Positions 41,509 through 54,496 of a stretch of 64,000 nucleotides of DNA are shown here, in pieces. Source of the stretch: Felis catus (Eukaryota); the NCBI RefSeq assembly GCF_018350175.1, contig NC_058370.1, positions 15,066,001 through 15,130,000 on the forward strand, read 5' to 3'. The position numbers and the translations under genes are program-made. The stretch's first letter is position 1. Every line of letters starts with the position of its first letter. The notes below the pieces were generated by a model. The model had not been told where the DNA came from. It did no database searches and was given only the letters and a program-made list of their open reading frames with translations.

Positions 41509-42879
41509 TCAGAGCTGGACCTGCTCATAAGGGCCGATCCAGCTGTCGGCCAGTTCCCGCAAGGTGCTGTACCTCCGTTCAAACTCCTCCTGGCTGCAGT
41601 GCTGCAAGAGCTGACTCACCTCCTCAGTGAGGAGCGCCACGGCCAAGTGCTTGTCCAGTGTCTCACTCCACTTGCTGCCCAGGATGTTGTCTAGACTGGC
41701 AGCACAGCCTGCTGTCCACTGGGCTGGCAGCATGTCGGGCTGGAGCACCTGGTGGCGGGCACTGAGCAGGGCTAGGATGTGGCGGCAGGGCAGGTGGAAG
41801 GCCTGGTTAAAGTAGCAGCTGCAGCTGGCAGGGGGCTGAGGCTGCACCCTATGGGTGTCCTCCAGGATCTGTATGTTCACCTTTTCTGAGCCGGAGCCAA
41901 TGAGGTGCACCGATTTCTGGACCACAGCAAGCTCACCCAGGCAGAGCTGGGCCGCTGGCCCCGTGCAGATGGCATTGAGGGAGTGCTGGATGCGGGCTTC
42001 TACTAACTGCTCCACTCGGGGGCTTTCGGGGCTGACGTCTAAGGGGGCGTGATTGTTCTGGGGACTCAGGCCCAGGCTGGAGCTTGCCTTGTCTCCAGAG
42101 TTCTGCTGCATGTATCGGAGCAGCAAGGTCATGCCTTGTTCCACACACGGGGTGGTGCCAAAGAACTGGCTGAGGACACGGGTGGTGACCTCCAGGCCCT
42201 GGAAGTAGCGGCTGCTCTCAGCCCGGCTTCTCCAGCGGTGGGCCAGCCAGATGCGGTCATTGAGCAGCCAGTGTGAGTGGAGCTCGGGCAGCTGGGCCGG
42301 AGGGATGCAGCTGCTCAGGAGCGTATACAACTTCCTCAGGTTGCCAGCTGTGGCCGAGCACATCGTGCTCTGCAGGGAAGTGAGAAGCACCCTCTCCACA
42401 GGCTGTTCAAGGGACAGCTGATAGAACTTGCCCTGGAGGAACTTACAGATGTGGAAGGCTGAGAGCAGGACCTCGGCTGCGGGGAACTCCATAGTGAGGG
42501 TGGGCAGGGGGAGGAAGTGGGGATCCACCAGGATGGTACAGACTCTCTCCCATGCTGGGTTAAACTTCTTAAACACCTGGAACATCTGGGCCAGGCCTTC
42601 AGCATCCTCCTTGGCGGGAATGGCGAAGTAGACCGCCCGGGCAAGATGACCCTCCAGCTGCACCCGAGGTCCATCTACCAGGAAGGTATATAGCACCTTG
42701 CCCACTGGGTTATAGGTCCGGTGGATAAATAAGATCTCAGGGAAATGGGCAAAGACACCTTGCATAAAGCAGCTCTGGTAGTTGAGGGTATCTAACTCAG
42801 CAGTCTTGCTAATCTGATACAGCAGCATAGGTGGGTTTGGGTCCTCAATCAGGAGCTCATTCAGCATTGTCAGGGCCAT
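41509..42879 (-). CDS. ZSWIM1: Zinc finger SWIM domain-containing protein 1, 456 aa, single coding exon
   Basis: Long [16 protein letters not shown]... with SWIM finger [15 protein letters not shown]. Exon acceptor at 43024; non-coding exon 1 donor at 44024 (GG|gtgagt). Confidence 0.96.
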
Positions 42880-44023
42880 GGGGAGATGGGAGATGTCTTG
42901 ATGCCAAGGTCAAAGTACTTTCTCTGCAAGGCTGCCGTCCAGGAGACTCTCAGGATCTCAAGCTCCAACTAAGTTGAAGCCTGAGGCTGGACTGTAGTTC
43001 CCAGATCTTGTTCCGAAGATGGGCCTAGGGAGAGGAACACAAGTTTAAGGCAATAGTAGGGGCTTAGCTCTTCAACTGTGTATCCAGACAATATTGCTCA
43101 CTATGTAAGTATTGCTTATTACTGTGACAGTATTGCTTACTGTTCTGGGGGAGATACACAATAAACGTGTAAACAGATAAAGATATAACAAATAAGGAAG
43201 GTTACAAAGACCACAAAACTGGGTAACAGGTAGAGAGTAAGGTGGGGGAGGAAGGGATACTTTAGCTAAGGTGGCCAGGGAAGCTCTCTCCGGGTGGGGA
43301 GAGAGGATGACATTGGAGCTGAGACCAATTGGTAAGGTGGCCATAGGAAAATTCAGTTCCAAGAGATTGAAATGGGCGTGAAGGCTGGAGGTGCATGTGG
43401 CCTTTTTTTTTTTTTTCTTAAATAGCATTTTAAATATCTGTTTAGTGCTTTATATTTGCAAATTACTGCTGGCATCCATTCTTCCATTTGGTCCTGGTAT
43501 ATACAAGCGAACTGATTGCCCCCCAAATTGTATGATTCTGGGCAAGTCAGTGACACTCCCTCTGAGCCTCAACCCCTTGAACCACGAACAGGGGCTATCA
43601 AATGTGCTTGGCTTCTCCTGCCTCTCCATTAATCCCTCTATTAACTGCAGTACTCTGTTCAAATGTTTCCTCTATTTGGCCCCAAATCGGGTTACTGTCC
43701 CCATTCTACAGATAAGAAACTGAGGTTCAAAGAGGTTAAGTGACTTGCCCACCATTACTCTGTAAGTAGCCGGAAGCTGAGTCTTTGACTTCGGATCCTG
43801 ACTGCTTTCCACACAGTACCTGAGGTCCAAACACCAGAGAGGGGCCGCAGCCTCTGACCTCTCACCTCTAACCCGGGTGGGAGGATGTAGATGTCAGACG
43901 TTCCCATTCGGAGTCCGGCCGGAGCCGGAAGAGAAGTCAACCTCCCACCCCTTTGGGGGCTGTGTCACGGCTGACCGCGGTCATCAACTGCCTCACACCT
44001 CCACGCCTTCAGAAATCACTCAC

Positions 44024-51800: not shown

Positions 51801-54496
51801 TAATTTGGGTTGCCATGACTCCCCCACAAAGCTAAGTACTTCAGGGCCAGTCTAAGCCAACTGAGCTCATCTCATTGGGAACGGGCATGGATACTGGCCC
51901 AATTCTGGAGAAAGAAACAGGATAGGAAATCTTCAGGAAACTGAGGAAGGCTTTTCCATTTGGATGTGACCCCTGCCTCTGTACCAAGCTGAGACCTGAG
52001 GGTGGCAGAGCAGTAAGAAACAAAAAGCCAGGGCCGTGGAAACAATCACCTTCACGGACCCACCTCTAGGCTTCTAAGAAATAAGCCATTTTGAGTCAGA
52101 GTTTTCAGTTAATTGCAGCCAAAACTGTCCCTCAGAAACAACATACGATAGTAAATAGAGGGGGAAGAAGATTTGAGAGGAACTTTATCTTGAAATAGGA
52201 GCCTAAAATTATGAAGTTAATATTATATTTAACAAAACATAGGTTATAATGGCAGCTATATACCAATTCTTAAAATAATCCAAGAATGACTTACAGTGTC
52301 AACTGTTTTTTTTTTTTTTTTCCTGGTGCATTTCCCCTCAAACACTAAGATATTTCATTTCCTGTCTCACTTTTACAACACGGAAAGGCCAGTTTTACCG
52401 AAACATTCCTGGGCTTTATCAGGTTTCCCAAAGGCCTAATTTTATTCTTTGCTATGCAAATCCTTCGTTTGTCAAATTCCTATCACATCGTCATCTTTGC
52501 TCATTTTTCTTCTCCTCCTGTTCACTGGTGTCAGGCTGAGGGTGATGTAAGTAAGGAGTTCTCATTACTTTCAGAGATTTCACGAAGTCTTGCTCTCGGG
52601 AGAGGTGTAATTTTGTTTGCAGTTAGTTTCGTTTCCATTGTATTATCCTGATGTTTACCACACTTACTGATTAGCCAGAAACTGACTGCCAAAGATATTA
52701 ATGGGACTGGTAGGGATAAGCAGGAAATTATTAAGCAGTGACTAATTTTATAAGTGGCTGGCTTATTAGCAAGACTTTTGTAGGACATTGCTTTCCTACT
52801 CGGCCTTGTGACTATGGATACATAGAAAATGAAAAATCGGGTAACAAGGGCCTAGTTCACAGGGTGTAATGAGGATTAAATAAAACAATGCCTGTAAAGT
52901 TCTTAGCACAATCTCTGGAATGCAGCCCCCAAAAATGTTCCAAAAAAGGTAGCTATTAAACCGAACAGCAATGGAGAGAGACATGAGAATACTTCCTGGA
53001 CTGTTTGAAGAATTATCAATCCCCCCCAAAGACATAACAAAAGCAAAAACACAACAGCCATGTATAAAAACATGAGAGGGAAAACCGGGCATAAAAGCAT
53101 AGAATCTCCCAGTGGAGTGGGACTTTTGGTGGTCTAGTGATAACTCCCGCAGCGCATGTGATTCTCAAAGTACTGAGTCAAAGTACCGCTTTCTACCATG
53201 TACTGATTGCAACTGAGCACTGAGAAACTGAGCACTACGCTTCCGCTCCTACACGCGTTCGGTTAATCTTTACCATATCCACTTCAGTTTAGAGGATTAA
53301 ACCGTCACAGAAATTAAGTCTTGCCCAAACTCAAGCGTAAAGCCTGTCTTTCTGACTCCAGAGCTCTCTTTTAACTCCTTGATGGGGTTTAGGGCAGGCT
53401 GCCCCAGAATTTGCTACTTGGACGTGTGGCTTATTTTGAGCTGAAAACAATCAAGGTCCAACAGACTCAAGATGAGCTTTTCACCTCTCCCTTAACTGCC
53501 TAGAATAATTTAGATAGACACTCTGCCCATACAGCTTGGACTTGGCCCACGTGGACTGTGTTCGAATTGGACCCGACTTTCAATTTTTAAAAAGTGGAGA
53601 AATTGACCTAAAGCCTGGATTTCTGACTTCCCTTGCCCCAAAGCCTGGCCACAGGGGATCTTCATTTCCACACGGCGGCCATTAGCTAATGGCAGTTGAT
53701 TAGATAGGGCCTGCTCTCCATTTTGCCCAAGTCCCACTTCCGTGGTCCCTGCTGCAGAGACCTGGTGTCTGTGGTTATTTCATCATTCTTTCTCTTACGG
53801 TGAAATTAAAAGTTAAACTTTCTTACCCGGGGCTGTTTCACCTGAACCCTGAAGACAACTGAGTTGTCAACCCTTTTCTTAGCCTCTCGGCCTGTTTTCT
53901 CCGCTGCCAGATGGGAAAAAATAGCTTTTGTCTATAATTCTCAATTCAGCCCTGCGGGGTAAGTAAAGCACGCACACAACGGAGAAGGATGCCTGGGGCA
54001 TGGGGAACGTTTGGAAAACGGCTGTGAATCTCAGAAGCTCAGGGACCATTTACAAAACGAATGAATGAACGAACAAACTAATCCACAACTGACCGCGTTA
54101 ATTGCCTGGTCAAGAGAACACTGATGAAGGGAATCACCGCGAAGGCGTTTTTTTTTTTTTTTTTTTTTTAATCCATTTGCGAAAACAGTGTACTTTGAAC
54201 TAGGGATACCGCAGGTGCTCAAAAAATGGGACAAATTACAGTTATTCCGGGAAAGCTGTAATGGAGTGAATGAGTGGAGGGGAAGTGGGTGGTCAAAAAG
54301 CGATGCCTGTGAAGCTTTGGCTCTTCTCACCAGGCACAGGGCAGGTGCTCAGCGCCCTGTGGAATGCTAAGACACCAGGGCCCAACTGCACTCCCTCCAC
54401 GTCCAGGCCTCCCACCAGGGCACAGTCCGGCCTCCTCCCCACCCCCCTGCCCCGCCCCCTGCCCCGCCCCGCCCTTACAGGATGTCCTCGCGGATT
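45872..54496 (-). CDS. ZSWIM3: Zinc finger SWIM domain-containing protein 3; start codon lies in the N gap
   Basis: Exon 2 47807-45872 ([17 protein letters not shown]...CPAYLLLRY...[19 protein letters not shown]...ATIHD*). The 3' end of exon 1 is visible at 54496-54479 (IREDIL|gtaagg) with matching phase. Confidence 0.95.
48168..48390 (+). mobile_element. CAN-SINE in the ZSWIM3 intron
   Basis: Typical head, (CT)n and AATAAA tail. Confidence 0.85.
49100..49324 (+). mobile_element. CAN-SINE with 16-bp TSD
   Basis: ACAATTGGATGGGGCT at 49083-49098 and 49325-49340. Confidence 0.9.
52200..52810 (-). mobile_element. Probable ancient Tigger/pogo transposon remnant
   Basis: AT-rich. The minus strand gives decayed fragments (ELLTSHPQP..., [19 protein letters not shown]) reminiscent of Tigger transposase C-termini. 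Family assignment is from recollection only. Confidence 0.4.
53380..53520 (+). mobile_element. LTR fragment (MER34-like ERV1)
   Basis: Begins TGATGGGGTTTAGGGCAGGCTGCCCCAGAA...TATTTTGAGCTGAA, similar to MER34-type LTR 5' ends (recollection). Confidence 0.5.

What the first reader, a model, noticed from the sequence alone, without database searches (positions are those of the whole stretch)
41509..54496. ZSWIM3-ZSWIM1: a tandem pair of domesticated Mutator/MULE-type transposases sharing the same catalytic-site substitutions
Seen: both bodies are single large intronless exons in head-to-tail tandem. They are paralogous over long blocks ([12 protein letters not shown] vs [21 protein letters not shown] vs [16 protein letters not shown] vs [37 protein letters not shown] vs [45 protein letters not shown] vs [15 protein letters not shown]). 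Established: MULE transposases and their domesticates (plant FAR1/FHY3, MUSTANG) have an N-terminal WRKY/GCM1-like zinc ribbon, an RNase H DDE core with a CxxH motif after the second Asp, and a C-terminal SWIM finger. Inference: the first catalytic Asp position is His in both genes, the second Asp is retained (VDP), and CxxH has become SxxH in both, so catalysis was lost before the duplication. ZSWIM3 keeps the N-terminal C..C..H DNA-binding-like module (FVCIR...CPAY...QHVH) while ZSWIM1 lacks it. This suggests a two-component vertebrate analogue of FAR1/FHY3: a DNA-binding subunit plus a partner or dominant-negative subunit. Both proteins are poorly characterised as far as I know.
Basis: partly seen in the sequence, partly recalled or inferred. 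Interest (0 to 1): 0.75.

Follow-up and report, generated by a model that had tools for sequence, protein, structure and literature searches.

The report
Tamed Mutator transposase pair in vertebrates
ZSWIM3 and ZSWIM1, two neighbouring genes kept from coelacanth to mammals, match Mutator-type jumping-gene enzymes along their whole length and share the same changes in the DNA-cutting site; they likely no longer cut DNA and likely act together as a DNA-binding pair, which would explain why rare variants in either human gene go with longer telomeres.

Summary
Both proteins align end to end with MULE transposases (HHalign E 2.6e-49 and 2.2e-41). The best solved match is the IS256/Mutator transposase ISCth4 (Z 12.8). 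In both genes the first catalytic Asp is His and CxxH is SxxH; in 60 relatives these columns are Asp (58) and Cys (57). Both coelacanth copies have His and Ser, so the changes predate a duplication older than tetrapods.

Corrections: ZSWIM3 has two coding exons. The pocket is still under selection.

Added: in UK Biobank, rare variants in each gene associate independently with longer telomeres (PMC11387196). The ZSWIM1 variant D474N hits a near-invariant Asp of the shared C-terminal hairpin. This favours partner over dominant-negative. Binding between the two proteins, and to DNA, is untested.

Pfam already names the RNaseH-like fold. I found no paper stating a MULE origin, though an unseen 2026 preprint table may list them. 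New variant of a known kind; interest 0.62.

The parts
41509..42879 (-). ZSWIM1 coding sequence, 456 aa, single exon; no N-terminal zinc module
42466..42819 (-). ZSWIM1 RNaseH-like core (aa 21-138): H53 at the first catalytic Asp (codon 42721-42723), D119 = second Asp (42523-42525)
   Evidence: PF21056 E 5.3e-26; column mapping
42079..42462 (-). ZSWIM1 helical insertion and return to the RNase H fold: S140xxH143 (42451-42462), W211, E230 = catalytic Glu position (42190-42192)
   Evidence: PF21600
41755..41853 (-). ZSWIM1 SWIM finger (CxC...CxH)
   Evidence: PF04434 E 9.7e-9
41527..41658 (-). ZSWIM1 C-terminal helical hairpin; D445 (41545-41547) corresponds to residue 474 of the 485-aa ape isoform
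   Evidence: PF19286; also aligns to transposases
43501..44500 (-). candidate ZSWIM1 promoter and non-coding first exon (raised CpG o/e 0.45-0.69, three CCAAT boxes); candidate acceptor of the coding exon near 43025
   Evidence: sequence; inferred, not shown by reads
45872..47807 (-). ZSWIM3 coding exon 2, 644 codons
47657..47785 (-). ZSWIM3 N-terminal C..C..HxH zinc module (WRKY-GCM1/FAR1/AFT-like), exon-2 half
   Evidence: PF21599 E 9.1e-17
47036..47425 (-). ZSWIM3 RNaseH-like core: H172 at the first Asp (47291-47293), D233 (47108-47110), S254xxH257 (47036-47047)
   Evidence: PF21056 E 1.2e-35
46658..47029 (-). ZSWIM3 helical insertion; W325; D344 at the catalytic Glu position (46775-46777)
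   Evidence: PF21600
46253..46342 (-). ZSWIM3 SWIM finger
   Evidence: PF04434 E 5.6e-9
45995..46126 (-). ZSWIM3 C-terminal helical hairpin
   Evidence: PF19286 E 1.6e-23
47808..54478 (-). ZSWIM3 intron (6671 nt, GT..AG, phase 2) inside the zinc module
54479..54496 (-). visible 3' end of ZSWIM3 coding exon 1

Best explanation
ZSWIM3 and ZSWIM1 are full-length relatives of MULE (Mutator/IS256-type) transposases that share His in place of the first catalytic Asp and Ser in place of the CxxH Cys, likely cannot transpose, and likely work as a complex in which ZSWIM3 would bind DNA and ZSWIM1 would be its partner, likely restraining telomere length. Shown here: homology over the whole length with no added host domain; the residue mapping; both copies present from coelacanth to mammals as one clade; no N-terminal zinc module in ZSWIM1; continued conservation of pocket residues. 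This origin part I put at about 0.95. Inferred steps: (1) a MULE transposase was captured in or before the stem of lobe-finned vertebrates, lost the first Asp, the Cys and the TNN loop, and then duplicated in tandem; (2) ZSWIM3 binds DNA through its WRKY-GCM1-type zinc module, as FAR1/FHY3 and Aft do; (3) ZSWIM1 joins it through the inherited oligomer surfaces (core, insertion, SWIM, C-terminal hairpin), since DDE transposases act as multimers; (4) the old active site now holds DNA backbone, a DNA end or a metal without strand transfer; (5) the complex limits telomere length, either by regulating telomere or nucleotide-supply genes or by acting at chromosome ends.
For: End-to-end HHalign to 38 transposase-like proteins: probability 100, 546 and 438 columns. 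All 38 of those match MULE PF10551, and 20 of 38 match Transposase_mut. Their profile hits ISCth4 at its second Asp, CxxH and Glu (E 7.8e-5) and Aft2 at the N-terminus (E 0.011). Both models hit ISCth4 first. Spacings: ISCth4 66/24/83, ZSWIM1 66/24/87, Muta1 69/24/112. 43 of 60 full-core relatives keep D-D-E plus CxxH, and several are multi-copy in one genome (tick, Hydra, Phytophthora, Lineus). ZSWIM1+3 form one clade, SH-aLRT 100, on a long stem. Human genetics: ZSWIM3 truncating variants, 53 carriers, beta +0.78, P 3.3e-9; ZSWIM1 missense-filtered model, 1092 carriers, beta +0.17, P 9.5e-9; reported as independent of each other. D474N (beta +0.45) maps to D445, Asp in 128 of 129. Xenopus zswim1 and zswim3 are both maternal with the same pattern. 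The third relative ZSWIM9 repeats its core in cis, 2 times in turtles and 7 in Xenopus, which fits a multimer role.
Against: No paper in my searches reports a ZSWIM1-ZSWIM3 interaction or DNA binding; the STRING analysis in PMC10236294 links only ZSWIM5/6/8. The published partners are signalling proteins: STK38 and TRIM21 for ZSWIM1, TRAF2 for ZSWIM3. ZSWIM1's telomere signal is missense-based, and only one ZSWIM1 collapsing model appears among the listed rows, so its loss-of-function direction is not fixed. D474N is partly shared with a PCIF1 variant (conditional P 6.2e-7), and neither gene was prioritised in its GWAS locus. The His is not universal: Asp in newt and I/V/F/L in frog ZSWIM1, Gln in lungfish ZSWIM3. 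The lungfish copies lie on records of different length with distant accessions, so tandem order may not be obligatory.
Confidence: 0.45

Rival explanations
1. Same transposase origin, but the two proteins now work independently as protein-interaction or ubiquitin-pathway adaptors through SWIM and helical surfaces. The tandem arrangement is only history, and the telomere signals are indirect or separate.
For: Reported partners are STK38/MEKK2 and TRIM21 (text partly unreadable) and TRAF2 (review). The paralogues are only 28% identical. Each appears to have its own promoter region.
Against: Two independent same-direction associations with one narrow trait. Four invariant zinc ligands of a DNA-binding-type module in ZSWIM3. 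The interaction reports largely come from overexpression in cancer lines or one disease model.
Confidence: 0.3
2. ZSWIM1 is a dominant-negative partner that binds ZSWIM3 and keeps it off DNA.
For: ZSWIM1 lacks the N-terminal module and is net acidic (K+R 34, D+E 43). Its human signal is missense-driven, so gain of inhibition is not excluded.
Against: An inhibitor's damaging variants should shift telomere length opposite to ZSWIM3 loss, but both go to longer. Many different rare missense variants are more likely to damage than to enhance (inference). A mere decoy would not need E230 and H143 near-invariant.
Confidence: 0.1
3. The active site is rewired, not dead: a His/Asp/Glu plus His pocket still binds metal and cuts or processes a nucleic-acid end, for example trimming telomeric DNA.
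For: Of 29 ZSWIM1 core columns with a D/E/H consensus, only 3 are at least 95% conserved: E91, H143 and E230, all conserved MULE positions. ZSWIM3 H172 is 128 of 129 and H257 129 of 129. Loss of function lengthens telomeres. Newt ZSWIM1 has D-D-E with SxxH.
Against: The first Asp is essential in Muta1. Most bird ZSWIM1 rows have Gly at the second Asp, and frog ZSWIM1 has hydrophobic residues at the first. The DKD lysine and TNN loop, invariant or near-invariant in the 38 relatives, are gone in both. These residues may be kept for folding or phosphate binding.
Confidence: 0.08
4. The RNase H-like resemblance is real, but the genes descend from an old cellular family, not from a transposon.
For: I could not obtain DNA of any close relative to show terminal inverted repeats or target-site duplications. 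A 2019 survey found no convincing vertebrate MULE.
Against: The nearest relatives have intact DDE+CxxH, a patchy spread (tick, thrips, Hydra, ribbon worm, oomycete) and many near-identical copies per genome. No orthologue is reported in zebrafish.
Confidence: 0.04

Closest known systems
MULE / Mutator transposases (PF10551; Muta1, MuDR) and IS256-family ISCth4 (PDB 6xg8)
   Same: WRKY-GCM1-type zinc module + RNase H core with helical insertion + SWIM finger; motif order and spacing D-D-CxxH-W-E; shared C-terminal hairpin with the invertebrate relatives.
   Different: First Asp is His, Cys is Ser, TNN loop and DKD lysine are lost. Single-copy, orthologous across lobe-finned vertebrates, intron-containing, no TIRs. 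PF10551 scores are below its cut-off (17.2 and 19.5 against 27.6).
Plant FAR1/FHY3 (FRS) and MUSTANG, domesticated MULE transcription factors
   Same: Whole-transposase domestication without an added host domain, the same three-part architecture, and a paralogue pair. FHY3 has D-D-D, as ZSWIM3 has Asp at the third position. FAR1-related clusters are ESM look-alikes.
   Different: Animal; nearest relatives found are invertebrate and oomycete MULE-like proteins, so an independent capture is inferred (no plant sequence was in my trees). One member lacks the DNA-binding module, whereas FAR1 and FHY3 both keep it (recalled). DNA binding and transcriptional activity are untested for the ZSWIMs.
ZSWIM9 (C19orf68; Pfam DUF5575)
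   Same: Third PF21056-like locus in this genome, same MULE subfamily, with an N-terminal zinc module.
   Different: Opposite decay pattern: keeps the first Asp and the Cys, loses the second Asp, the His and the Glu. The core is repeated in cis in turtles and Xenopus. One versus two captures is unresolved (support 4; AU p 0.81).
Pfam ZSWIM1-3_RNaseH-like, _helical, _C and ZSWIM3_N (PF21056, PF21600, PF19286, PF21599)
   Same: Curators already split these proteins into the same domains and call the core RNaseH-like.
   Different: The family names and descriptions shown do not state a MULE origin, an active-site mapping or a date.
RAG1 and other vertebrate domesticated DDE transposases
   Same: Insertion-domain DDE fold (RAG1 Z 7.7, Hermes Z 7.9), captured early in vertebrate history.
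   Different: RAG1 stays catalytic (established knowledge) and comes from Transib, not MULE. Z values under 8 are only fold-level matches.

Membership tests
MULE/IS256-type transposase (protein family by descent) | RNase H-like catalytic domain with alpha-helical insertion | tested here: met
   Foldseek top hits ISCth4, E 1.6e-4 and 3.6e-5; VIA Z 12.8, rmsd 4.1, 212 aligned; it is the only chain of 48,161 with Z of 8 or more
MULE/IS256-type transposase (protein family by descent) | Sequence homology to MULE transposases | tested here: met
   HHalign E 2.6e-49 and 2.2e-41 to 38 proteins that all match PF10551; direct PF10551 score below cut-off
MULE/IS256-type transposase (protein family by descent) | N-terminal WRKY-GCM1-type zinc module and C-terminal SWIM finger | tested here: met
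   SWIM in both; N-module in ZSWIM3 only. Its WRKY-GCM1 assignment rests on ESM look-alikes (0.90-0.91) and a weak Aft2 hit of the relatives' profile (E 0.011); that part of the 3D model was low confidence
Active MULE transposase | Intact D-D-E triad | tested here: not met
   H-D-E in ZSWIM1 and H-D-D in ZSWIM3
Active MULE transposase | C/DxxH motif and conserved Trp | tested here: not met
   His and Trp kept; Cys is Ser in 132 of 132 ZSWIM1 and 129 of 129 ZSWIM3
Active MULE element | Terminal inverted repeats, 8-11 bp target-site duplication, multiple copies | tested here: not met
   The 25 longest of 48 inverted pairs in 38000-58000 fall in a few SINE-like copies and poly(A)/CT tails (SINE label recalled); 3 PF21056 matches in the genome from 7 candidates scored, a lower bound
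Domesticated transposase gene | Single-copy, orthologous, intact frame across long time | tested here: met
   Named orthologues in mammals, reptiles, birds, amphibians, lungfish and coelacanth; same-contig evidence in coelacanth, newt and shoebill (17,133-nt contig)
Domesticated transposase gene | Purifying selection by dN/dS | not testable with these tools
   No orthologous DNA available; protein conservation used instead (71 of 456 and 89 of 644 columns at least 99% invariant)
Domesticated transposase gene | Nearest relatives are true mobile elements with TIRs | tested here: inconclusive
   Multi-copy with intact catalytic motifs; no DNA locus obtained
FAR1/FHY3-like transcription factor | Sequence-specific DNA binding and transcriptional regulation | not testable with these tools
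   Needs SELEX, ChIP or reporter assays
FAR1/FHY3-like transcription factor | Homo- or heterodimerisation of paralogues | not tested

The most novel reading that the evidence does not exclude
ZSWIM3-ZSWIM1 is a heteromeric pseudo-transpososome captured from a Mutator element over 400 million years ago (age from own knowledge of the coelacanth split) that acts directly at chromosome ends. ZSWIM3's zinc module reads telomeric or subtelomeric DNA, and the rewired His/Asp/Glu pocket holds or processes the DNA end to limit telomere length: a second vertebrate genome-maintenance machine built from a transposase, after RAG.
Probability: 0.1. Interest if true: 0.93.

Novelty: new variant of a known kind. 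Interest (0 to 1): 0.62.

Why it matters
[quoted passage not shown] ZSWIM1, ZSWIM3 and ZSWIM9 are protein fossils indicating that a MULE was present in the ancestry of lobe-finned vertebrates. The mapping also gives two poorly understood human telomere-length genes a concrete structural model, with named residues to mutate (H53/D119/H143/E230, D445 = human D474, the four zinc ligands) and a clear test of complex versus independent action.

Tried and rejected
Direct profile search of the ZSWIM alignment against PDB sequences gave only one chance hit (E 0.46); the link needed folds or the intermediate transposase profile. The full-length ZSWIM3 model was poor (pLDDT 52; N-terminal module mostly under 50), so the N-terminal fold was not confirmed structurally. 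Searches for TIR-bounded relatives in viral contigs found nothing. The first tree placed ZSWIM9 apart from ZSWIM1/3. I rejected reading this as an independent capture, because the tree with the three held together was 20 log-units better and a richer tree joined them with support 4. The newt Asp at the first catalytic site was considered as a retained ancestral state. It is more likely a reversion: the sequence is nested inside ZSWIM1, coelacanth and lungfish ZSWIM1 have His, and His to Asp is one base change. Inverted repeats near the genes were rejected as TIRs. Earlier scan findings: none returned. dN/dS could not be run.

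
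Full report
What is there. Two minus-strand genes lie head to tail. ZSWIM1 is a single 456-codon coding exon, 41509-42879. ZSWIM3 has a 644-codon exon, 45872-47807, and a short first coding exon whose visible end (54479-54496) splices in frame across a 6671-nt GT..AG intron. The ZSWIM3 protein is 99% identical to a tiger record, so the window is from a cat. The two proteins are 28% identical over 494 columns, E 2e-54. Pfam gives both an RNaseH-like, a helical, a SWIM and a C-terminal domain, and gives ZSWIM3 alone an N-terminal domain; MULE scores are below cut-off. Of 121 ZSWIM1 rows, 3 have more than 30 residues before the shared start, and none of those shows the zinc motif by eye.

Origin. 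A profile of 32 ZSWIM1/3 sequences found 1878 representatives at E 0.001 or better, of which the best 150 were returned. After the ZSWIM1/3-like rows come transposase-like proteins. Of 104 such aligned segments, 60 spanned all five motif columns and were kept; the rest were partial and were left out of the counts that follow. In an independent MAFFT alignment of these 60, the column of ZSWIM1 H53 is Asp in 58, D119 is Asp in 52, S140 is Cys in 57, H143 is His in 56, W211 is Trp in 59 and E230 is Glu in 55. In the HMM alignment 43 of the 60 keep the full D-D-E plus CxxH. I chose 38 relatives for a profile; all 38 match MULE PF10551. That profile aligns with ZSWIM3 over 546 columns (E 2.6e-49) and with ZSWIM1 over 438 (E 2.2e-41), from the zinc module to the C-terminal hairpin, so no host domain was added. 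It also hits ISCth4, a solved IS256/Mutator transposase, placing its second Asp, CxxH and Glu on the same columns (residue numbers from PMC7780238, passages). The ZSWIM1 model (pLDDT 74) has ISCth4 as top Foldseek hit and as the only chain with Z of 8 or more among 48,161 (Z 12.8). The weaker ZSWIM3 model (pLDDT 52, hyena orthologue) also ranks ISCth4 first. I looked up 17 transposase-like representatives. Named ones come from ticks, thrips, Hydra, a sea urchin, a ribbon worm and an oomycete, and several clusters hold many loci of one species. I could not show TIRs for them.

The active site. Across 132 ZSWIM1 and 130 ZSWIM3 sequences (heavily mammal and bird, but including coelacanth, lungfish and amphibians; gaps not counted), the counts are as follows. 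ZSWIM1: H53 119 of 130, D119 101 of 132 (27 Gly), S140 132 of 132, H143 131 of 132, E230 132 of 132. ZSWIM3: H172 128 of 129, D233 117 Asp plus 11 Glu of 129, S254 and H257 129 of 129, D344 120 Asp plus 4 Glu of 130. Mutating the first Asp of the mosquito MULE Muta1 abolishes transposition (PMC5225508, passages), so transposition is likely lost. But only 3 of 29 ZSWIM1 core columns with a D/E/H consensus are at least 95% conserved, and they are E91, H143 and E230, all conserved MULE positions. The pocket is still selected for something. Against a strict catalytic role: Gly at the second Asp in most bird ZSWIM1, hydrophobic residues at the first site in frog ZSWIM1, Gln in lungfish ZSWIM3, Ser for the His in lungfish ZSWIM1, and Asp in newt ZSWIM1.

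Timing. Newt shows the same adjacency, and shoebill has both on a contig of 17,133 nt. The lungfish copies do not show this adjacency. ZSWIM1 and ZSWIM3 are each one clade and together one clade, SH-aLRT 100, on a stem of 1.1-1.2 changes per site (quick trees without bootstrap). Zebrafish is reported to lack both (PMC10236294, passages). I did not search shark or basal ray-finned genomes. A third match in this genome is ZSWIM9. It keeps the first Asp and the Cys but has lost the second Asp, the His and the Glu, and it carries 2 cores in turtles and 7 in Xenopus. Whether it is the same capture is unresolved.

Function. PMC11387196 (passages, section 8 and supplementary rows) reports in 462,666 UK Biobank genomes that rare variants in ZSWIM3 (truncating: 53 carriers, beta +0.78, P 3.3e-9) and ZSWIM1 (filtered missense model: 1092 carriers, beta +0.17, P 9.5e-9) associate with longer telomeres, independently of each other. 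ZSWIM1 p.Asp474Asn has beta +0.45, P 5.8e-18, falling to 6.2e-7 when conditioned on a PCIF1 variant. Ape ZSWIM1 is 485 aa and its residue 474 is the Asp equal to D445 here (the human sequence itself was not seen), which is Asp in 128 of 129 orthologues, in the hairpin shared with ZSWIM3 and the transposases. Same-direction effects fit a shared pathway and fit a dominant-negative role poorly, with the caveat that ZSWIM1's signal is missense-based. Xenopus zswim1 and zswim3 are both maternal. Other reports give signalling partners: STK38 and TRIM21 for ZSWIM1 (PMC11183318, outline and first part, Chinese text mostly lost) and TRAF2 for ZSWIM3 (review PMC10539712, passages; primary paper not seen). 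The N-terminal module resembles FAR1 and AFT DNA-binding domains, but DNA binding is not shown. I therefore commit to a pseudo-transposase complex with ZSWIM3 as the DNA reader at 0.45, with the origin itself at about 0.95.

Novelty. Pfam already labels the fold RNaseH-like. Ten full-text searches returned no paper that, in its listing or in the passages I read, calls ZSWIM1/3 MULE-derived: 'Mutator + domesticated + ZSWIM' gave 0, 'ZSWIM + MULE + transposon' gave one unrelated work, and the old gene name gave 0. The library lacks most subscription papers. PMC1702500 (passages; figures and supplements not seen) mentions uncharacterised vertebrate WRKY-GCM1 proteins without naming these genes. 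A 2026 preprint (10.64898/2026.08.24.746577; passages and sections 8 and 23) reports 309 MuDR-derived genes in 38 events across eukaryotes; its Data S1 could not be seen and may include the ZSWIMs. PMC6446971 (passages) found no convincing vertebrate MULE and lists the question as open. Verdict: a real, well-supported vertebrate case of whole-MULE domestication, a new variant of a known kind, made more interesting by the split into a member with and a member without the DNA-binding module, the conserved pocket and the telomere link. Interest 0.62.

Noticed in passing
L003:1-1977 (-), G000:C39: ZSWIM9 is a third MULE-derived gene with the opposite decay pattern (first Asp and Cys kept; second Asp, His and Glu lost). 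Its core is 84-100% identical among the mammalian hits listed.
   Followed up: partly
P0280 (Xenopus zswim9, 3143 aa); P0545, P0550, P0559 (turtles): ZSWIM9 carries seven tandem degenerate transposase cores in Xenopus laevis and two in turtles, against one in mammals.
   Followed up: partly
P0259 / P0391 (newt ZSWIM1): Asp at the first catalytic position, giving D-D-E with SxxH; probably a reversion. It is a natural test case for residual activity.
   Followed up: partly
bird ZSWIM1, P0200-P0242: The second Asp position is Gly in most bird sequences while H143 and E230 stay invariant.
   Followed up: partly
P0103 (Nipponia nippon, 1048 aa): A predicted ZSWIM3-ZSWIM1 fused gene model; probably an annotation artefact of the tandem, but read-through was not tested.
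   Followed up: no
window 54700-55260: ZSWIM3 lies head to head with a plus-strand gene starting near 55137 (ACOT8, name recalled) across a CpG-rich, probably bidirectional promoter (CpG o/e 0.58-0.75).
   Followed up: no
window 39622-40362 (+): A 246-codon open frame tail to tail with ZSWIM1 (SPATA25, name recalled).
   Followed up: no
window 42880-42930 (-): Sequence matching part of the 29-residue N-terminal extension of ape ZSWIM1 is recognisable upstream of the ATG but is out of frame here, so the extension is lineage-specific.
   Followed up: partly
alignment A5: 6 of 38 transposase-like relatives carry a PHD finger, absent from the ZSWIMs.
   Followed up: no
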